From Paraglomus brasilianum (Eukaryota): 64,000 bases of DNA. Shown one piece after another: positions 1 through 56,349 of this stretch. The position numbers and the translations under genes were made by a program. The stretch spans positions 1-64,000 of the forward strand of contig CAJVPI010000032.1 of assembly GCA_910592345.1 (NCBI GenBank), in the 5' to 3' direction. Each line of letters begins with the position of its first letter. Positions within the stretch are counted from its first letter, which is position 1. Under the pieces are notes generated by a model. It saw only the letters and a list, made by a program, of their open reading frames with translations, did not search any database and was not told the origin of the DNA.

Positions 1-335
1 TTATGTATTTGATTGCTACTGGTGAACCACCTTTTAGGGATAGGCAGTTCGATAGAGATTTAGCATGCGATATTATGAGCGGACTACGACCGTCGATGCC
101 CGATTCTGCACCAGAGGAATACAAGAAACTTGCCGAGCGGTGTTGGGATGCTGATCCTGATAAGCGTCCAAATTTATCGAGCCTAGTGCATGATATCGAC
201 CAGCTTCTTGAAGAGGTGAAAAAAGACAATTCTGATGACAACATATGGAATGCCGTTTATCATAATGATATAATACCCTTATCATGTCTCGAAAAGGAAA
301 GTAAATATTCCAGTAAGCTCTTACCTACAGGATGA
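1..335 (+). CDS. C-terminal fragment of a tyrosine-kinase-like (TKL) protein kinase, 5' end outside the window; possibly a pseudogene
   Basis: Kinase subdomains IX-XI: ATGEPPF...IMSGLRP...YKKLAERCWDADPDKRP. TGA at 333-335 is followed in frame by LPKPRNS, which looks like continued coding sequence. Confidence 0.8.
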   Translation, partial: MYLIATGEPPFRDRQFDRDLACDIMSGLRPSMPDSAPEEYKKLAERCWDADPDKRPNLSSLVHDIDQLLEEVKKDNSDDNIWNAVYHNDIIPLSCLEKESKYSSKLLPTG

Positions 336-1587: not shown

Positions 1588-2049
1588 TCACCAAATTCTG
1601 CACAACACCTCTCCGCCTTGATTACAGGCTATTGCCTCATGGACACTTATGACTCCAAGCGTAGTGCTAATAATAGCGACCTCTCCAATCTTCAAGCCAC
1701 CCACAAAATCCACTCGCTGTCCAGCTAAAAACCTTTGCAATTCCTCCACATTCATATAAACGCGTCTCGATCCCTTACTAACACAGCTCATTCTCCTCAA
1801 GACCGACTCATTCTGCCTGTATTTCAATTCAAGCCATAACCGACGCATAGCTATATTCTCCGGTGTGTTTGGCACAAACTCTTTATCCGGTCCCCGGTGA
1901 TCGCCCCGAGTGACCGAGGATATAAAACCTTCACGGTAAAGAGCGTTGCATATGGCAAGGTTCATTTTTTTATCGGGTACAGATATCGATCTTAATTGTG
2001 CTCGGAATCCGTTCTGAATTCGTGCGCAGAGGTCATGAACTGCCGGCAT
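1588..2049 (-). CDS. MRPS8: Mitochondrial ribosomal protein S8 (uS8m), single exon, 153 aa
   Basis: HDLCARIQNG, LYREGFISSV, RRLWLELKY, SKGSRRVY, GGEVLCRIW are uS8 family motifs. First ATG is at 2049. Confidence 0.93.
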   Translation of the reverse strand: MPAVHDLCARIQNGFRAQLRSISVPDKKMNLAICNALYREGFISSVTRGDHRGPDKEFVPNTPENIAMRRLWLELKYRQNESVLRRMSCVSKGSRRVYMNVEELQRFLAGQRVDFVGGLKIGEVAIISTTLGVISVHEAIACNQGGEVLCRIW

Positions 2050-9481: not shown

Positions 9482-11871
9482 ATGACACCACCAAAGATGT
9501 ATCCCAGAACAATATCACCGCAAGTGCCTGCGGATAATGTTCCAAATCAAAAGTGTAAGTACGTGGAAAGAGGGTGGGAGACTACTGCTGTAGATTTGCA
9601 GACATGGGGAAAAGCGACGTTCGTTATTCGTTCAGCTCACTTATTTCTTCTTGTCTCGTAGACGTAATAGGCGTATGTGCTATGAAAAGCAAGGCGACTT
9701 CAAAGCCTATGAAGAGCATACTAAATAGACTAGTTGCATATAATGAAATAGATGTCATAACATTCGATGAAGAACTCATACTGACAAAAGGTATGTACTA
9801 TATACATGGTCTCGCTCATTACAATAGTAATGGTTCTATGCGAAGAAAGACGCTACTTGTAAGAACTTTTATTTTGTGGCCTCTTCCATTCTACCCTTCG
9901 TTCGTACTTTCCTATTTCCGTTTCTTCTCACGCGCATACCCGACAAACAGATGTCCATTCATGGCCTCACTGTCACACCTTGATATCTTTCTTCAGCTCC
10001 GGCTTTCCGTTGGAGAAGGCTGAATCATATGCAAGACTAAAGAAGCCTTTTTGTATCAATGACCTCACTATGCAGCGTCTACTTTGGGATCGAAGACTTG
10101 TTCTTGCACTTCTCGACGCAGTAGGAGTCCCGACTCCCCCAAGAATAATAATCAATAGAGATCGGTGTAAAGTAGATCCGAGCGTTATCGACCAGATCAA
10201 AATCGCAACAGGCGTCGAAATTAATTTGGATGGTTTTTGCGAGATTGAGAATACCCATGTCGAGATGGTTGACGAAGACACTGTAAAGATTGGAGGACAG
10301 ATTTTGAAAAAGCCATTTGTCGAGAAGCCAGTCGATGCGGATGATCACAATGTGTACATATATTATTCAAAAGAGATGGGAGGTGGTGGTAGAAGATTAT
10401 TTAGAAAGGTAAGCTATCGGGTAAACATGGAGCGAATCGCAATACTAATTTTACCAAAACGCATATATAATTTAGACTTTGTTATGGAAAAGGATGCTTG
10501 TATATTGAATCAAGCTTGCTTGTACCGTTCCACATACACTTCTTTATTAGCAGTCTACGCCTCATAGTTATTAATACATTTATTATCAAATTTCATATAT
10601 TCCAACCTTAATTCCAGGTAAACAACAAATCGAGCGATTTCGATCAGGCCCTGACCACTCCGCGTACATCCGGTTCATACATATACGAGGCATATCTTCC
10701 ACCCGATAATTCTTCGGATGTGAAAGTATATACCATTGGCCCTGGATATACTCATGCAGAAGCTCGCAAATCGCCTACTGTTGATGGGCGGGTAGATCGT
10801 TGTAAAGACGGTAAAGAAGTCAGACGTGTCACAGAATTGACGGAAGAGGAGAAAGAAATCTCTGGAAGGATTGTTAAAATCTTTGCACAATGGATTTGTG
10901 GATTTGACTTGTTGAGAGTAAAGGAGAAAAGTTACGTCATTGATGTAAATGGATGGTCGTTTGTCAAAGGATCTGAAAAATATTATGAAGACTGTGCTAG
11001 GTTGATACGAAAGTTGGTCTTGGAAAGAGGGATGAAGGAACAAATGCAAAACCGTGACGATAGGCGTACCGCAGATGCAGCAGACGAGGCTGACGCCATA
11101 ACCCAAAATGGTACTGTCAAAGACTCGGATAAATTGATCGAAGAAGACGCGTCGTCAGCCGAACGTTCCAATTTGTCATTTGCCTCTTTTCTCCCGGACA
11201 CCATCCTGCCTATTTCCAATTTAGTCCATATCGTCACTACCCAAGCGGTTTCCCTTCTTCTCCAAACGAACCAGTCTTTGTCTATTCTATTTAACTTGGC
11301 GGTCCAGGCCGTAAAACGATGGTATGACGATATGAGAAAATTTTTCCATCCCGATGCAGTTATTTCGAAATGGGCGACCACTGCTCATTCAGCGGCTATG
11401 CAGTATGGTGAAACAACAGAGATTACGCCGTTTGAAAATTCTGTCAATCATGGTGAGCATGACAGTGACAGTAATACTTGTCATAAGATGGAGAATGTTG
11501 GGTCGGTTGAAAATGCCGAGATGGATGTGAATGCGCGAACAGCTAGCTCCTTGGAAGAGCGTTTTGACATTGCATTCAGGGACCAGAACGACGCGTCATG
11601 GGACGAAGAAGAAGAAGGATCACATGAACAAGAAAGCATTGCTGATAATAGTGATGACGATGATAGAAGCATTGATAGCAGGGATAGTGCGGACCATGAT
11701 AATAGTAGAGCAGCAGATTCAAATGATGAGTACTGTGATCGTTCCCACTTTGAAATGTATGAATCACAAATTTCAGAGATATCTCAAAAGTCGCCTCACA
11801 TCACTTACTCTGACTATCATTACGACAATTGTCCAATAATCAACAAGCCATGGGAAAAGGGTGCTTTGTAG
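9482..11871 (+). CDS. VIP1: VIP1/PPIP5K-family inositol pyrophosphate kinase: kinase domain plus acidic tail, no phosphatase domain; 4 exons
   Basis: Spliced exons give YVIGVCAMKSKATSKPM, WPHCHTLISFFSSGFPLEKA, LWDRRLVL, KPFVEKPVDADDHNVYIYY, GGGRRLFRK, DVKVYT, HAEARKSP, CGFDLLR and DVNGWSFVK. The gene symbol denotes the family; this is likely a paralogue. Confidence 0.88.
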
Positions 11872-24076: not shown

Positions 24077-25480
24077 ATGAAATTTATCCGAGTCGCACCT
24101 TTAGACGTTCCATTCGAAAGGCGACGCCAGACGGCTGTGGTCTTCTTATGGCTGATATCACTACCAGTCACATTATTTATATTCTTCTTCATGTGTACAG
24201 TCCCGTTCTTCTGGCCATTTATTATCACATATTTATTGTTCTTATTATTCGACATTGCGCCTGAGAATGGAGGGAGGCGATTTGAATGGGCACGAAAGGC
24301 ACGATTCTGGAAGTGGTACGCAGATTACTTTCCGATTAGTTTGATCAAGGTGAGAGCAAATAGATTAGTCTTTTCTGGGTGTTTGAATCGTGTGACTGAC
24401 GACGTTGTCTTCATTTGAACAGGAAGCCGATTTAGATCCGTCCAAGAATTACATATTTGGTATTTTGACAAAAGCTCTGCTGTCCCTTGTAAAAGCTTAT
24501 TCTAAACTTAATTTCAATTGTTTAAACAACAAGGTTATCATCCACATGGTGTGATCGCAGTTGGAGCATGGACCAACTTTGCAACCGAAGCAACTGACTT
24601 CTCCAAATTGTTCCCTGGCTTAATTGTTCGTCTCTTGACGCTGACTAGTAATTTTAGCATTCCTTTCTATCGAGATCATGTGATGTTTCAGGGAGTAGCT
24701 TCAGTGTCTCGGGCGTCTTGCCGGAATATATTGAACATGGGTCCAGGACACTCGGTCATGATAGTTGTTGGTGGCGCAGCAGAAAGTTTAAACGCGCGTC
24801 CCGGAGTGTACGATTTGACCCTGAAGAAGAGATTGGGATTCGTCAAACTGGCTGTGCAAAATGGGTACGTATTAGGGATATAATTTCTGTAGTTATTGAC
24901 ATTTGCCTATTGATGACGTGTGGTTCATATGCGATCGTGTAAACGAACCTTTGCTTTAACAGAGCGTGTCTTGTTCCCGTTTTTTCATTCGGTGAAAATG
25001 ACATCTGGGAGCAAGTTGATAACGAGCAAGGTGGCATTGTGTGGAAGTTACAGAAAAATATGCAACGATTACTTGGATTCACTCTTCCACTCTTCCATGG
25101 ACGCGGCGTGTTTAATTGTGAGCAGAGTTTTATCTATATTTGAGACAAGTGACTTGAACGTTTTTTATACTGATTCCGCGCATATACACAACCCGTAGAC
25201 AATGTAGGACTAATGCCACATAGAAGGCCTATTACAACAATTGGTAAGTATGAAATGACCTTGGAAACGTAATCATAGTCAATGCTGTCGTTCCTTACTT
25301 TCAATCGCTGCTTTTCATATAGTCGGGAATCCAATAGAAGTTACACAGAAAGATAACCCAACCGAAGAAGAACTCAGGACAATCCAACAAAAATATATCG
25401 ATGAATTGTTTCGTATATGGGAGACTTACAAAGACACATACGCTGAAAATAGGAAAAAGGAGTTGACTTTAATTGATTGA
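24077..25480 (+). CDS. DGA1: Diacylglycerol O-acyltransferase (DGAT2 family), multi-exon
   Basis: APLDVPFERRRQT, YFPISL, GYHPHG, VVGGAAESL, RLGFVKLA, LVPVFSFGEND, PLFHGRG, GLMPHRRPITTIVGNPI, ending ELTLID*. A likely non-coding 5' exon/intron lies at 23876-24063. Confidence 0.95.
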
Positions 25481-45866: not shown

Positions 45867-47646
45867 AACTCTAGTGTGACAATACTAAAATTAGATCGCT
45901 ATTTCGGCTGCAATATACATATATAACAATCAAAATTTACAAACTCTGTATCATAAAAGTTGTATGACTATGACAGGTTTCTCTGGCCCAGCACATCTTG
46001 CTGTGATTTCTCCTTTTTCTCATCTAGCATGTTGAGTTTCCTTTTTTTCTCTTCATCTTCTTTATGCTCATTCTTGTCACTTACAACTCCATCCTACATG
46101 TAATAAATATGAACAAATGATTACCCTATGAAACTGGTCCCAATGACAATAAACAGAAAGAGAAGCTTGCCTTCTTATAGTAATAGCTGACAGTAATTCC
46201 TGTGGAAAAATACTTGGTGGCAACAAATCTAACATGACTGAAAGGCCCATCCTTTGGATTGTCTTTCATTTGATAATAAAATGATGCAGCTTCTTTGGAT
46301 GTTGTGAAGTGAAGATGTCCAAACCTTGAAAAACATAATACTGTTGGTGTTGGTGAGGGTCATGGTAATCACACATGAATGAAAAAAGCTCTCACCCCTT
46401 AGAAGGTTTCTTGACAATACACACAACTTTACAGAATCTGTAGTTTTTATAAATCTCTCTGTGACATCAGAATAAGATCACCACTATCTAACAGGTATCA
46501 CATAATGAGATTGCCATGAGGATTCTAATTTTTAGTGTATTGTGAAGATGTGCCCACAAGATTTCAGGGATGCATGGAAATTTTACAAAGTTGAACAATC
46601 TGGCAATTTGTTGGTGACATCATGACGAGATGTTTGCAATATTTTCTGATTGTAAATGTCACATGGTTATCAGCACAATGTCATTGAGACATTTTTAAAA
46701 AATGCAAGTTTTTGTAAAGAAATGAGACTGGTGTCAAAGTCCTCAACCATTCATCCAAGTGTTGTGCCTCCACACCTTCTAAACAGCCTGCAAACATGAC
46801 AGATCTTTCAGCTTTCCCACAGCAGTTATTCGAGTACTTCAGCAGAAGTTCTAAAGTCGAAGAGAAAAAAGAAAAACAGAATGATTAGCAGCAGGGGTTA
46901 TAAATCTTCACTTCAGTGAAAGGTGTGGTGCAGTACAGCTCCTCAAGGGAAGGGTGATAAATTACCAGCAGTTTTCGGTGGCATTTTGATGCTTGAGTCA
47001 ATGAATGCAGACCAAAAAGTAAGCATAAAGAGTGAAAAACGCCATAAATACACCCTCTTGATTTTTTGGGGAAGATGGAAGACGGAAGAACAGTGCTATG
47101 CCATGTACATACAATGCTTGGGAATTGCGATTGACTTGCTCGAAAAGCACGTAACGGAGGTTTAGAGAAGACTGGGGATAAGATAGAGTTAGTAAATACG
47201 GAGATAAAAGAGGAAACGCGTCAGAAACGTATAAACAATTAAAAAAAAATTAAATTCAGCAGTCACAAATCTAGCCCCACGTGATGGTCTTTACGGAAGC
47301 AAAAAATAGCGGGTTATACTTTTGACTTGTTTACTGCCATTGTTTTATATGGTGGATATCGAATAATTAAATAAAAGGTTACGGGCAAAGCGAGAACGAA
47401 AATAAATTCTTTAAGCCTGATAATCGAGTGACGTCAAATGTTCACTTTTCACTATATATAATTCCGGGAATTATATTGTGACGCAGATTGTATACAACAT
47501 ATTAATATAAATCAGCAAATTTACCTTTGATCACATGACTATATAATCACATGATTCATATTTGGCACAACTTGTCGCGACTAAGCAGTCCGAGCCAATA
47601 TTTCACGCGGAGACAGGAATGGATTTATAATTATCAGGCTCTCGTT

Positions 47647-50600
47647 ATGCTGACGCACACGTTTAATAAAGGCTGGAAGAGGGTGTTTCCATGTAATTAT
47701 TGGTTTGCGCTTTCAAACAACGCCACATTCCGTACATACGTGAGTACGTCCATAAATGATACACCGAAAACCAAACAAGTAAATGGCGTCGTGAACGAGA
47801 TTAAGACAGCACCGTATGAGAGTGAGTTTCTAGTCGTGAATATGCAAGACGCATGTATGATATGCAAATTTTATATTATTTTGTTCTCAATCACCAAATT
47901 AATGTACAATTTTCAGGAGAATTCAACCACTTTGGCATAGAAACGCTTCCACGTTGGCTTCATGAACAATTATTCCACAACCGTCCGTCCCCATCTCAAA
48001 ATTGCCTTAGAATAGCATCTGATCATCTCTTGAAGAACAATATATTGATCAAGAATGACAATACGCCTGCTCCGATCCCTCAATTCAAGCTGCCCAAAAT
48101 TGTTGGTGCATCAATTGCCCACCACTTTTACAACATAGCAAATCAACAAGCAGAACCGATTAGCCTTGCTCGAGAATTTTCCAAGTCTAACATACCTGAA
48201 GCTCCAAATCGCGGTCAATGGCAATTTAGAGCGGGTTGGACAAAATACTATAATGATAAAAACGAACCAGTTGAATATCCAGATGAAGAAAGTCTATGTT
48301 TTGACGTCGAAACAATGGTTAGAGACAGTAATTTTCCTGTGATCGCATGCGCTGCATCTTCAACTGCATGGTATTCATGGGTCTCACCTCGGCTTATAGA
48401 ATACTTGGAATATAAAACTTCGAATGAATCACTATATCCATCGCGTGGCTGCTCACCCTCTCTTACCGAGCATTTAATTCCGCTTGGTGAAAGCGATCAA
48501 CAGAGAATAATAGTTGGACATTGTGTTGGATATGATAGAGCAAGAGTTAAAGAGATGTATTCTCTAACATCTCCCAATCTTCACTTTCTGGATACGGCTG
48601 CTCTACATATTGCAGTGACTGGATTATGTAAAACATGCCCGTCATGGCTAAAGACAGACAAGCTGTGGGAAACATATGATACCAACCAATCAAAGGAATT
48701 TCATGCGCTATACGATCTTAGCCTTGTTAGCAGTCTTCGTGAAGTATATTCATGTTATTTTTCTGACAAACTAGATAAATTACCACGTAACGTATTTGTT
48801 GAGGGGAGTTTGGATGATCTAATAGTCGAGAAGACCTTTCAGGAGCTTATGTCTTATTGTGCTAAGGACGTAACAGTGACTTATAAGGTATTTCAGAAAT
48901 TATTGCCGAAGCATCTGGTTAAATGCCCGCATCCAGCGTCGTTTGTGGGCATGATGCACATATCAGATGCATTTTTGACAACGAACAGTGATTGGAATAA
49001 ATACATAAACAATGCGGACATTATATACAAGGAACAAATGGACACTATAGAAAGAATGTTCCAGCAGTTAGCAGACGAAGCTGTGAAAGTTGATCCATCC
49101 CATGCAATGAACGATCCATGGTTGCAGCAATTAGATTGGTCGACAGCAGCGCCGTCCACGTCTTCTTCCTCTTTATCATTTGCCTCGTCACCATCGTCAA
49201 CGTTATCATCATCGTCATCTTCTTCAAAGAAATCTTCGTTTCTTCCTCGCTGGTACCGTCAGTCTATGAAAATCACTACCAGGTCAAGGATAGCACCTAT
49301 ACTCCTCCGTCTCAAATGGAAAGGATATCCCGTTTATCATACAAATACTTTCGGATGGACTTATCGAGTTCCTATTAATGATTCAAAATTCAAAGAACTA
49401 GTTCCGCCCTGCACTTGGCCAGCTTCATCGCTGTCACCATCTTACGAGCCAAAATATGGCAAGGACACGACTGGAAGATATTATCCTATTTCTTATGACG
49501 GTAGTGATAGCTTAAAATGTCCATCACCGCTTTCTCGCTATTTTCTACCTGAAATCGAATCAGGAACACTTTCATCTGACTCAACTACAGCTAAATCAAT
49601 TCTCCGAGCTTATGCTTCGTGTTCCTACTGGAAGATGAACGAAGATAGAATAAAGTCAACGGTAATAGTCTACAATACGAAAAGTAACGGAGTGAAGTCT
49701 GGAATGATACTTCCAATGGTTAAACCACTGGCGACAATCACTCGTAGACCGAGGGAGCATCTGTGGATGTCGGCCAATGAGCTACACAAAGAACGCATTG
49801 GGTCAGAATTAAAAGCTCTAATTCAACCGCCGGATGGGTACAAAATTATAGGCACTAGACTATCATCTCTGGAATTATGGATTTATGGTCTTTTGGGAGA
49901 CGCTCAGTTTGGTATACATGGAGCTTCGGCTATGAGTTGGATGTTATTACAAGGAGGCACATCGGTTACCTCGAATCTGCATACACGAGCTGCCAATATC
50001 ATGAAGGTATCTGATAGACAAGCAGAAGTTATCAATAATGCAAGAACACTTGGAAGTGATGAGAATTTTCTTACGCAGATGATTAAGAAATATAATAAAA
50101 ATATTAGTGAAGAAGAAGCTAAATCACTAGCAAAGAAATTTATTAAATGTACGACTGGTTTAAAGTGGAACGCTGCAAATGCCCAGGTGAATGTTCAGTG
50201 GTCAAGCCAACCAAAAAGCCAATCATCCACCAAATTACGATCAACACCAAAGAGTACCAGTCTGTTTGTTGGTGGAAGCGAGAGTTATACAATCAATACA
50301 CTCAATAGCATAAACAGATCCTCCAAGCCATGTACACCATTTTTAGGCTCCTGCCTTACAGAAGCATTGAATCAGGCATGCCTGAAAAAAGAGCATTTGT
50401 CGTTGCGTCTAAACTGGTTAATCCAGTCATCAACTGTTGATTATATTCATTTAATGCTGGTTGCTATGAAATACCTGATAGATACATTTGATATCAAAGC
50501 AAGATTTATGCTACTGTCACAGGATGAATTAAAGTATCTTGTTAAAGAAGAAGACAGTTATAGAGCAGCATTAGCTTTACAAGTGAGTCATTTGTGGACA

Positions 50601-51131
50601 AGGGCGTTCTTTAGCTACATGCTGGGAATTGAGGACTTACCTCTGGTATGTTTATATTGTTAGTTTGGCGTGTTATTTATATTTCAATTTAATCAAAATC
50701 TTTTGTCTATTTTGCAGAATGTAGCATTTTTATCAAGCATAAATTTTGACAATGTTCTTCGCAATGACATTGGTGCAAATTGCAACACACTCTCATATGT
50801 ACCAGTCAACACACCCAATGGAACTAGTGTCTCCATTCATGACATTCTACAACATCAAACTTCTCTTGAATTAGACAAAATGTCTGTTCACAGACAAGAA
50901 AGTAATATTTCAGCTGTCCCAGGCATAAGTGCACAAAATGAGTGCCTGTTGCATCAAAAAAAACCATTGGTGAATGACTTGGTTTTGAAGATACAGTCAC
51001 TGTCTTCTGCACGAGAGATTGAAACTTTTCTGAAGCAGCACAATAAGAAGGCTAATGAGCCTGCACAGGCTTTCATAAATATTGCACCACTCGTGACAAA
51101 GAAATTAAGCTATGATTTTTTAATTAACTAA
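47647..51131 (+). CDS. Mitochondrial DNA polymerase gamma (POLG/MIP1)-like protein with intact exonuclease and degenerate polymerase site; 3 exons (47647-47821, 47917-50645, 50718-51131)
   Basis: POLG-family motifs along the whole length: FNHFGIETLPRWLHEQLF, GWTKY, CFDVET, VGHCVGYDRARV, YCAKDV, CPHPASFVGM, RIAPILLRLKWKGYP, IGSELKA, LGDAQFGIHGASA, GGSES, NWLIQSSTVDYIH, YRAALALQVSHLWTRA. Confidence 0.92.
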
Positions 51132-54976: not shown

Positions 54977-56349
54977 ATGTCTTCGAACGACAAAAAGCCG
55001 ACAGTAGTTGAAGAAGACGACGACTTTGACGACCTTCTCGATGGTTTGATCTTTTATCTCTTTACCCTGCCTTGTCTTGGTTTGATAATCTGAACTTATC
55101 CGTTATACACTATTACAGATATTCTAGATGATTTTACACAAGAGCCACCAGCACAATCAGAAGGTGGCCATGCCTCGTCAAACAAAGATAGCACTCAGAA
55201 ATCTCCTACAGAAGAAGACTTGGAGAGAGAAGTCGAAGAACTATTCAATGATAAATCATTTGAGGATACCTTTCATGCACTATTAAAGGCTTTTGATGAC
55301 GCCAATATAGACGATTCTGCTAATGCTAGTACTGCAAATGAGAGCCAGAGTGGAGAAACGGGTGGAACAAAAGGAGGGTCGTTTCAGGATCACATAAATC
55401 AGACAATGAATATGTTGAAGAACAGCTCTGATCAGCTTGATGTACGTTAACAAGCAACTGTTCATTTGGATTTGGGTGAGAGTGGAGAGGAGAATGTAAC
55501 AAGAATGGTATGGGGTATGGTGTCATGCAGTTTTTTATCATTGCAAATTAGCTCAATCATGCTAATTTCATAACCAAGACTGAAATGACAGACAACGAAG
55601 ACTTGTTATCAGACTTTGTGAAGGCATTGGACAACATTGCTGAAAGCGGTGATTTTACAAATTTGGTCGAGAATATGATGGATAAACTAACGACTAAAGA
55701 CCTCCTCTACGAACCGATGAAGGAACTCGGTATGAAGGTACTCGTATCAATTATTTTCGTTTATTTTCACATTTGGCTACCTCCCGATCAACGCATACGT
55801 CGTGCGATACCCCTTTTGTTACTATGTTATTTGTTGTTCTATAAACACTTTCTTCTCCTTCCCATATAAACTCGCTCTAAATTCTCCAACTGATTAATCA
55901 AGATTTCATCCATGAATCCCATGACACTTTATATGATTGTTATTCTTTTAAGTACCCGCAATGGCTTAAAGATAACAAAGAGAAAGTTTCCAGGGAAGAT
56001 TACGAGAGATACGAGAAGCAATATGGGTGCGTTCAGAAGATTGTTGCGCATTTTGAGGCGCCGGAACCGAGGGCAGATGATGAAGAACAGAAGCAGGCCA
56101 TAGTTGGTCTCATGGAAGAAGTAAGACTGATTACAGAAGCGCTATAACTTTTGCTGCTTTATTTGTACAATTGGGCTTGCATTAATTGTTATCTCTTGTG
56201 CTTTATAGATGCAGAAGCTGGGTCATCCGCCAGAAGACATCCTGTATGAATTTGCACCTGATATGAAGTTTGATGAAAATGGTTTCCCTGAGCTCCCACC
56301 GGATCTGGTTAATCAGTTTGACTTTATGCAGAATTACAGTTGTAAATAA
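54977..56349 (+). CDS. PEX19: Peroxisomal membrane protein import receptor Pex19, 5 exons
   Basis: DDFDDLLDDILDDF (Pex3-binding), SFQDHINQTMNML, MMDKLTTKDLLYEPMKEL, YPQWLKDNK...DYERYEKQY, MEEMQKLGHPPEDIL. Confidence 0.93.

What the first reader, a model, noticed from the sequence alone, without database searches (positions are those of the whole stretch)
47647..51131. POLG paralogue that kept its 3'-5' exonuclease but lost the polymerase active site
Seen: an uninterrupted ~1100-aa POLG-like reading frame with good splice sites. Exo I (FDVE), Exo II (GHCVGYDRAR) and Exo III (YCAKD) acidic residues are all present. Pol motif A, normally VGADVDSQELW, reads IGTRLSSLELW (catalytic Asp to Arg, codon 49857-49859). 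Motif B, normally SRxxAKxFNYGRIYG, reads SDRQAEVINNARTLG (R, K and both Y lost, two with charge reversal). Motif C, normally IHDE, reads SQDE. Established: these residues (human POLG D890, R943, K947, Y951, Y955) are required for dNTP binding and catalysis. Inference: damage concentrated on catalytic residues within a preserved ORF suggests a selected pseudo-polymerase. It could be a stand-alone mitochondrial exonuclease (mtDNA degradation, proofreading in trans, heteroplasmy control in coenocytic hyphae) or an accessory partner of the true Mip1.
Basis: partly seen in the sequence, partly recalled or inferred. Interest (0 to 1): 0.88.

Follow-up and report, generated by a model that had tools for sequence, protein, structure and literature searches.

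The report
Polymerase-dead mitochondrial Pol gamma paralogue
A mycorrhizal fungus (Paraglomus) carries an intact extra copy of the mitochondrial DNA polymerase gene whose DNA-copying site is broken while its DNA-trimming site is kept; Ambispora has a similar copy, and the protein likely degrades mitochondrial DNA ends rather than copying them.

Summary
Confirmed. The three-exon model gives 1105 aa without a stop. All 28 near-invariant N-terminal/exonuclease positions are kept, against 49 of 68 polymerase positions (p=0.001). The motif A Asp is Arg and motif B is wrecked; motif C keeps Asp-Glu. Contigs of a separate soil DNA run match across motifs A and B. The window is Paraglomus. The gene is only 44-47% identical to canonical P. 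occultum Pol gamma (exonuclease and polymerase parts), so it is a paralogue. Both Ambispora species hit carry an Exo-intact/Pol-dead copy beside canonical ones; trees join these with the window (94-97% bootstrap; long-branch caveat). An 85%-identical relative shows dN/dS 0.2-0.3 in the dead palm. Glomerales and Diversispora carry the mirror image (Exo-dead/Pol-intact); Varroa and Strigamia carry Pol-dead copies outside the fungal clade. Best reading (0.5): a mitochondrial 3'-5' exonuclease acting on free DNA ends. Proofreading in trans is less likely, because the wedge arginine is lost. Not shown: a canonical copy in this genome, splicing, localisation, activity. Decayed copies also exist. Ten paper searches found no description.

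The parts
47647..47821 (+). Exon 1 (predicted); an in-frame ATG also lies upstream at 47551
   Evidence: ATG, GTGAGT donor; no spliced read seen
47647..47757 (+). Predicted mitochondrial presequence: 4 Lys/Arg and no acidic residue in the first 30 aa, first acidic residue at 38
   Evidence: own charge and hydrophobic-moment count; no dedicated predictor
47822..47916 (+). Intron 1 (GT..AG, phase 1), predicted
47917..50645 (+). Exon 2: exonuclease, spacer/thumb and polymerase domains (protein P0001, 909 aa)
   Evidence: AlphaFold model pLDDT 88, pTM 0.89; Foldseek TM 0.8 to Pol gamma
48300..48311 (+). Exo I, D198/E200 equivalents intact
48516..48545 (+). Exo II, D274 equivalent intact; N270 equivalent is Cys
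48621..48641 (+). Wedge-helix start: Arg309 equivalent absent, one residue shorter
   Evidence: Arg in 109 and Lys in 9 of 124 matched rows; 19 of 143 rows did not match the search motif
48855..48869 (+). Exo III, Y395/D399 equivalents intact
49146..49238 (+). Serine-rich insertion in the spacer, absent from the Ambispora Pol-dead pair, low model confidence
49488..49544 (+). Guide-loop region: present but altered; nine residues are missing here in both Ambispora Pol-dead copies
49731..49751 (+). Sensor loop start: T851/R852/R853 kept, G848 to Ala, A854 to Pro
49848..49880 (+). Pol motif A: catalytic D890 equivalent is Arg (49857-49859); E895 kept
   Evidence: identical in run X4
50010..50054 (+). 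Pol motif B: R943 to Asp, K947 to Glu, Y951 to Asn, Y955 to Leu
50517..50528 (+). Pol motif C: H1134 to Gln, D1135 and E1136 kept; same letters in L002
50646..50717 (+). Intron 2 (GT..AG, phase 0), position and ends conserved in L002
50718..51131 (+). Exon 3: end of palm and C-terminal tail, stop codon; stop at the same place in L002

Best explanation
This is an intact paralogue of mitochondrial DNA polymerase gamma in Paraglomus, kept by selection, that has lost its nucleotide-binding and motif A catalytic residues and likely works as a mitochondrial 3'-5' exonuclease on free DNA ends. Shown: intact frame, Pol gamma fold in the model, Exo I-III acids kept, Pol motifs A and B broken, paralogy, purifying selection on the palm, and a matching copy in Ambispora. 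[quoted passage not shown] The duplication is likely older than the Paraglomus-Ambispora split.
For: Domain-specific loss 28/28 against 49/68, repeated in both Ambispora copies (28/28 against 43/68 and 43/67), while canonical P. occultum scores 27/28 and 68/68. Paralogy: 44/39/47% identity by domain to P. occultum canonical Pol gamma, lower than the 54-76% between canonical Paraglomus and Ambispora, while the window's mitoribosomal S8 lies in a 90% cluster with a P. occultum protein. Selection: L002 has an open frame, in-frame indels only, dN/dS 0.20-0.29 over 123 palm codons, p 0.0003-0.003; the Ambispora Pol-dead pair is 83% identical in both exonuclease and polymerase parts. Trees join window and Ambispora Pol-dead copies at 97/93, 94/94 (N-terminal half only) and 97/98 (full length). 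RNA-library contigs of two studies cover five exon pieces (weak). Known biochemistry: Pol-deficient human POLG variants bind DNA and degrade it more (PMC4773887 section 5); yeast Mip1 exonuclease clears damaged mtDNA (PMC11894172 abstract).
Against: No activity, localisation or spliced transcript is shown. R309A and guide-loop deletion strongly cut exonuclease activity of human Pol gamma on mismatched primer-templates (PMC10752894), and Y951N lowers degradation of a primer-template (PMC12036981 section 7); the window has lost R309 and carries Y951N and N270C, and Ambispora lacks part of the guide loop, so the nuclease may be weak. Decayed copies exist: L001 (21 indels, 3 stops, yet near-identical over its first 790 bases), diverged X4 contigs with frameshifts and a stop, and the P. 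brasilianum fragment P0423. No canonical Pol gamma from the window's own genome was seen (none recognised). No full-length Pol-dead orthologue from P. occultum appeared among the listed hits. The annotated Ambispora Pol-dead proteins begin without a presequence (their canonical copies start late too). A separate origin in each genus is only borderline rejected (AU p 0.012-0.06).
Confidence: 0.5

Rival explanations
1. Non-catalytic regulator or partner: it binds primer-templates or the canonical Pol gamma and throttles, stalls or organises mtDNA replication; the exonuclease acids are kept for folding or DNA binding.
For: Human D890N and D1135A are dominant and stall and deplete mtDNA at about 1:1 expression (PMC1904276 passages). 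The dead polymerase half is under purifying selection. Residues that feed the exonuclease are altered. The mirror-image Exo-dead paralogue could be the same duplicate (AU p=0.28 does not reject), in which case neither activity would be the conserved function.
Against: All five catalytic exonuclease residues are kept in all five Pol-dead rows, whereas the Exo-dead clade shows that these residues can be lost without losing the gene. Pol-dead and Exo-dead clades are not joined in any free tree, and the Ambispora Pol-dead pair shares 0 derived residues with the two Glomerales Exo-dead rows tested.
Confidence: 0.19
2. Proofreader in trans: it binds mismatched primer ends left by the canonical Pol gamma, trims them and leaves.
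For: Exo-minus and Pol-minus Pol gamma complement each other in flies and in vitro (PMC4773887 abstract and section 14). Mismatch-sensing R853 and Q1102 and thumb R807 are kept.
Against: The canonical copies in P. occultum and Ambispora keep their own exonuclease motifs, so there is no obvious need. The wedge Arg that peels off the primer is lost in all three fungal Pol-dead copies. No species among the hits holds both a Pol-dead and an Exo-dead copy.
Confidence: 0.15
3. A duplicate on its way to becoming a pseudogene; the open frame in this strain is a leftover.
For: Long branch (0.9-1.7 changes per site); decayed copies in soil assemblies and in P. brasilianum; dN/dS 0.44-0.60 in the tail; no proven transcript.
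Against: 1105 open codons at under 50% identity to any canonical copy, whereas the decayed part of L001 gathered 21 indels and 3 stops at under 10% nucleotide divergence. Losses spare the exonuclease half entirely. L002 and the Ambispora pair are conserved and open.
Confidence: 0.07
4. It acts outside mitochondria (nucleus or cytosol) as a 3'-5' nuclease, in a lineage that has lost nuclear replication and repair polymerases.
For: [quoted passage not shown] Ambispora Pol-dead gene models lack a presequence.
Against: The window's predicted exon 1 is presequence-like; Ambispora canonical models also start late.
Confidence: 0.05
5. It is still a polymerase by an unusual chemistry, or the only replicase of this fungus.
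For: D1135, E1136, E895 and H932 are kept; no canonical copy was seen for this genome.
Against: D890 is essential (PMC1904276) and is Arg; both triphosphate-binding basic residues are acidic; P. occultum and both Ambispora species have canonical copies.
Confidence: 0.04

Closest known systems
Fungal Mip1 / human POLG (Pol gamma catalytic subunit; PF18136 + PF00476)
   Same: Full domain layout and fold (TM 0.8), Exo I-III acids, PF18136 at 276 bits (cut-off 26.7).
   Different: D890, R943, K947, Y951, Y955, H1134 and wedge R309 equivalents changed; PF00476 at 21 bits, under the 34.3 cut-off, against 61-72 for canonical relatives; exists as an extra copy.
Ambispora Pol-dead copies P0012 (CAG8534276.1) and P0047 (CAG8476501.1), annotated only as Pol gamma
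   Same: Exo acids kept, basic residue at D890, Leu at 894, Ile at 949, H1134 changed, D1135 kept, wedge Arg lost; joined with the window in trees.
   Different: Only 38-47% identical; they keep R943 and Y951, lose E1136 and nine guide-loop residues. Function equally unknown.
Engineered or patient Pol-deficient POLG (D890N, D1135A, H1134A, Q1102A, Y951N)
   Same: Polymerase-defective with exonuclease site intact; show DNA binding, raised or shifted degradation, dominance and complementation in trans.
   Different: Single harmful mutations in the only copy; here several are fixed together in a separate conserved gene.
Trypanosoma brucei POLIB (PMC9731263, abstract only)
   Same: Mitochondrial family A paralogue in which exonuclease prevails over synthesis; division of labour among paralogues.
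   Different: Not Pol gamma; keeps polymerase activity; its nuclease is an insertion in the thumb.
Plant DPD1 organelle exonuclease; the inactive second B-family module of Pol epsilon (both recalled, no call)
   Same: Nuclease related to a polymerase proofreading domain that degrades organelle DNA; a dead polymerase module kept for structure.
   Different: Different families; neither is a full-length Pol gamma with one site dead.

Membership tests
Pol gamma (POLG/Mip1) family by descent | Mitochondrial polymerase exonuclease domain PF18136 and full-length similarity to POLG/Mip1 | tested here: met
   (E 6e-148 to mouse POLG; 276 bits)
Pol gamma (POLG/Mip1) family by descent | Pol gamma fold | tested here: met
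   the model was guided by an alignment of mostly canonical relatives
Pol gamma (POLG/Mip1) family by descent | Groups inside the Glomeromycota Pol gamma clade | tested here: met
   100/100, 100/100, 100/99
Active replicative Pol gamma | Motif A catalytic Asp (D890) | tested here: not met
   Arg at 49857-49859
Active replicative Pol gamma | Motif B Arg, Lys, Tyr, Tyr | tested here: not met
   Asp, Glu, Asn, Leu
Active replicative Pol gamma | Motif C catalytic Asp (D1135) | tested here: met
   SQDE; His changed
Active replicative Pol gamma | DNA synthesis | not testable with these tools
   needs an assay
Active replicative Pol gamma | Mitochondrial matrix location | tested here: inconclusive
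   presequence-like charge pattern on a predicted exon
DEDDy 3'-5' exonuclease of Pol gamma | Exo I D/E, Exo II D, Exo III Y/D | tested here: met
DEDDy 3'-5' exonuclease of Pol gamma | Proofreading hand-over elements (wedge R309, N270, guide loop, R807) | tested here: not met
   R309 lost, N270 is Cys; guide loop altered; R807 kept
DEDDy 3'-5' exonuclease of Pol gamma | Nuclease activity | not testable with these tools
   needs an assay
Paralogue beside a canonical Pol gamma | Canonical copy in the same genome | not testable with these tools
   no genome held; shown for P. occultum (canonical copy only) and both Ambispora species (both kinds)
Pseudogene | Frameshifts, stops, dN/dS near 1 | tested here: not met
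   dN/dS measured on 237 of 1105 codons only

The most novel reading that the evidence does not exclude
Pol gamma repeatedly gives rise to a dedicated mtDNA-destroying nuclease. Arbuscular mycorrhizal fungi split its two activities by gene duplication in mirror image (exonuclease-only in Paraglomus and Ambispora, proofreading-dead polymerase in Rhizophagus, Glomus, Funneliformis and Diversispora), and mites and centipedes evolved Pol-dead copies separately with some of the same substitutions (D890 to Arg/Lys, 894 to Leu, F949 to Ile, A854 to Pro). The Pol-dead copy is the enzyme that purges one mtDNA type and restores homoplasmy in a shared cytoplasm.
Probability: 0.2. Interest if true: 0.92.

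Novelty: new variant of a known kind. Interest (0 to 1): 0.78.

Why it matters
Pol gamma is normally treated as a single-copy gene with both activities in one chain. A natural, conserved copy with only the exonuclease site would show that its destructive role (clearing damaged or unwanted mtDNA) can be selected on its own, although Pol-dead alleles are dominant poisons in human cells. It gives a testable candidate for how coenocytic mycorrhizal fungi return to one mtDNA type after hyphal fusion (open question: PMC4724407 abstract). That question was posed in Rhizophagus, where the hits show the Exo-dead type instead, so the link is indirect. The Exo-dead copy in Rhizophagus, a lineage reported to lack Pol epsilon and translesion polymerases, can be tested with existing transcriptomes.

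Tried and rejected
No whole genome is held, so a canonical copy could not be sought directly. First structure job on a 3-row alignment failed (pLDDT 30) and is not used. Counting shared derived residues does not prove common origin: the window shares 9 with the Ambispora Pol-dead pair but also 9 with Varroa and 6 with Strigamia, so such counts reflect convergence or long branches. Without the Ambispora Pol-dead rows the window is unresolved at the base of Glomeromycota and is not drawn to canonical Paraglomus. The 43-row tree is a quick tree with a long-branch warning. The wedge count was off by one column and was redone. Short matches at 49185-49226 in the read-laying come from the serine-rich repeat and were ignored. 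Lack of RNA cover on the introns is no evidence (167 of 3801 bases, sparse cover), and no splice joint was seen. Only 4 of 24 listed runs were laid; the possible source runs were not, so it is open whether the decayed copy sits in the same genome. The Atlas search gave only family A polymerase clusters. The search of shorter proteins (43 hits) found no intact Paraglomus fragment besides P0423. Rows flagged other than the five discussed were truncated models or distant sequences that keep the motif A Asp where covered. Three look-ups of earlier findings returned nothing. No complex prediction was run. Neighbouring reading frames gave no functional link.
Full report
Observation. The reading frame is as described. 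Exons 47647-47821, 47917-50645 and 50718-51131 with GT..AG introns give 1105 codons and one stop, and all six motifs lie at the stated places. Exon 2 alone (P0001, 909 aa) aligns over its length with solved mouse, human and yeast Pol gamma (14 sequences, E to 6e-148). Pfam gives the exonuclease domain 276 bits but the polymerase domain 21 bits, under its cut-off; canonical relatives score 61-72. Human residue numbers are used below.

Is it more than chance or error? The motif A Asp is intact in 118 of the 120 listed hits. In a 148-row alignment, 143 rows have both catalytic Asp (this defines the set); among them R943, K947 and Y955 are 143/143, Y951 141/143 and H1134 142/143, and the window has Asp, Glu, Leu, Asn and Gln. 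Of positions at least 95% invariant in 135 canonical rows, the window keeps 28/28 in the N-terminal/exonuclease part, 9/11 in spacer/thumb and 49/68 in the polymerase part (p=0.0012). D1135, E1136, E895, H932, R852, R853, N1098 and Q1102 are kept, so this is a fold-preserving loss of nucleotide binding and of one metal ligand. Run X4 (soil DNA, another study code) has contigs with 0 differences over 49605-49951 and 1 over 49922-50401 (4 of 24 listed runs were laid). AlphaFold on a 111-row alignment gives pLDDT 88 and pTM 0.89, and Foldseek returns Pol gamma at TM 0.8; the model leans on canonical relatives.

Lineage and paralogy. The window's mitoribosomal S8 is in a 90% cluster with a Paraglomus occultum protein, and a P. 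brasilianum fragment is 88% identical to P0001, so the genus is Paraglomus. P. occultum has a canonical Pol gamma (P0283), but the window's gene is only 44/39/47% identical to it by domain, less than canonical Paraglomus to canonical Ambispora (54-76%). It is therefore a paralogue. A canonical copy in this genome is inferred, not seen: no genome is held and none was recognised among the listed hits.

Relatives with the same pattern. Ambispora gerdemannii and A. leptoticha each have canonical copies and one copy with all Exo acids, Lys at D890, Tyr at H1134 and changed motif B (P0012, P0047). The pair is 83% identical in both exonuclease and polymerase parts, against 82-87% and 92-96% for canonical pairs. 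Trees join them with the window: 97/93 and 94/94 using only the N-terminal half, where no long branch was flagged, and 97/98 at full length. Tests of separate origins are borderline: window plus canonical Paraglomus p=0.06 (N-half) and 0.012 (full); Ambispora dead plus canonical p=0.047 and 0.06. One old duplication is favoured, not proven. That Paraglomerales and Archaeosporales are early-branching orders is recalled. Among 159 rows screened, two more full-length Exo-intact/Pol-dead proteins appeared: Strigamia maritima (both catalytic Asp to Asn) and a Varroa cluster (D890 to Arg). They fall outside the fungal clade; no canonical animal rows were in that tree, and canonical copies in those animals were not checked. 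At 894 Leu, 949 Ile and 854 Pro the window shares with Ambispora, Varroa or Strigamia residues that are rare or absent in canonical rows. Eight rows from Rhizophagus, Glomus, Funneliformis and Diversispora form a clade with the opposite pattern: Exo I and III lost, polymerase motifs kept; four species show it beside a full canonical copy. Whether it is the same duplicate is open (AU p=0.28).

Selection and expression. The metagenome scan gave 2 loci from 67 candidate stretches. L002 (85% DNA identity, 237 codons) is open, has coding indels of 12, 6 and 3 bases, the same intron 2, motif C and stop, and dN/dS 0.20-0.29 over 123 palm codons (p 0.0003-0.003) and 0.44-0.60 in the tail; it does not cover motifs A, B or the exonuclease. 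RNA-library contigs of two studies (X18, X20) cover five exon pieces at depth 2-4, one spanning motif A, with no splice joint; this is a hint only.

Results against. L001 matches the window almost exactly over 47839-48629 (3 changed codons of 236), then carries 21 indels and 3 stops and ends before the polymerase domain. X4 holds contigs with the same indels and another with a stop at codon 994, alongside contigs of the intact form. P0423 leaves the frame after about 85 residues. These are decayed extra copies, assembly chimeras or null alleles; the last would mean the gene is dispensable in some strains. They also show how fast a free copy decays, unlike the window's. The exonuclease feed is altered: the wedge position is Arg in 109 and Lys in 9 of 124 matched rows (19 of 143 unmatched) but neither in the three fungal Pol-dead copies; N270 is Cys; Ambispora lacks nine guide-loop residues. 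In human Pol gamma R309A and guide-loop deletion impair proofreading (PMC10752894, passages and section 8) and Y951N lowers primer-template degradation (PMC12036981, abstract and section 7).

Mechanism. Shown: intact, selected, Pol-site-dead, Exo-acid-intact paralogue. Inferred: import by a presequence-like N-terminus (4 Lys/Arg, no acid before residue 38); DNA grip by the dead polymerase half; direct loading and degradation of free 3' ends rather than hand-over from the polymerase site. Support from known enzymes: Pol-deficient variants bind DNA and degrade more, and complement Exo-deficient ones in trans (PMC4773887, abstract, sections 5 and 14); Mip1 exonuclease clears damaged mtDNA (PMC11894172, abstract); D890N is dominant and depletes mtDNA (PMC1904276, passages), so such a copy must bind primer-templates poorly, be tightly regulated, or be meant to deplete. 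Odds: exonuclease on free ends 0.5, non-catalytic regulator 0.19, proofreader in trans 0.15, decaying duplicate 0.07, non-mitochondrial 0.05, still a polymerase 0.04.

What is known. Ten searches of the held library listed no paper describing duplicated or half-dead Pol gamma in these fungi or arthropods; most subscription papers are not searched. The survey of Glomeromycotina polymerases (bioRxiv 10.1101/2025.09.02.673565: part 1 of 4, section 6 and a term search) has no occurrence of 'duplicat', 'paralog', 'exonuclease' or 'MIP1' in its main text; its supplementary tables are closed and may list two copies. The metazoan replicase study (PMC4419789, term search only) has no 'paralog' or 'Strigamia'. 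PMC4724407 (abstract, section 7, supplement search) reports return to one mtDNA type in R. irregularis and does not list Pol gamma in the parts seen; PMC3787672 was seen as passages; PMC9731263 as abstract.

Verdict. A real feature: a member of the Pol gamma family by descent that fails membership as an active replicase. New variant of a known kind; interest 0.78, raised by the recurrence and the mirror-image paralogue, held down by the lack of functional data.

Noticed in passing
P0286, P0287, P0285, P0288, P0289, P0281, P0122, P0291: A conserved second Pol gamma in Rhizophagus, Glomus, Funneliformis and Diversispora has lost Exo I D/E and Exo III Y/D but keeps the polymerase motifs (E1136 to Asp) and presequence-like N-termini: a likely natural proofreading-dead or translesion polymerase, in families reported to have lost translesion polymerases and (Glomeraceae) Pol epsilon. 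Present in many R. irregularis strains.
   Followed up: partly
P0181 (Strigamia maritima); P0182, P0269-P0272 (Varroa): Animal POLG-like proteins with intact Exo acids and a dead polymerase site, sharing several substitutions with the window; candidates for sperm or damaged mtDNA elimination. Canonical copies not checked.
   Followed up: partly
P0292 (Entrophospora candida 12899_t) and its cluster: A second, fast-evolving Entrophospora Pol gamma: both catalytic Asp and Exo acids kept, H1134 to Tyr, altered guide loop.
   Followed up: no
P0002, P0275 (Ambispora gerdemannii): Two canonical-looking copies (82% identical) besides the Pol-dead one, so three in one species.
   Followed up: no
P0281, P0122 (Diversispora): Only the Exo-dead type was among the listed hits for Diversispora; a canonical copy was not seen.
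   Followed up: no
L001:1-1523; run X4 contigs over window 48633-49163 and 50534-50962; P0423: Decayed copies of this gene; L001 switches sharply at window 48630 from near-identical to heavily broken, as does an X4 contig (gene conversion, chimera or allele).
   Followed up: partly
window 9559-11871 (+): Multi-exon gene with a RimK-like ATP-grasp hit that looks like the kinase half of Vip1/PPIP5K (recalled), followed by an acidic tail rather than an evident phosphatase domain.
   Followed up: no
window 1588-2049 (-): Mitoribosomal S8-like gene; the P. occultum model P0374 fuses it to a downstream Vps52-like reading frame (name recalled), probably an annotation error.
   Followed up: partly
window 3-335 (+), 24077-24418 (+), 55094-56147 (+): Fragment of a tyrosine-kinase-like protein and a diacylglycerol acyltransferase exon (Pfam); exons resembling Pex19 (by eye, recalled).
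   Followed up: no
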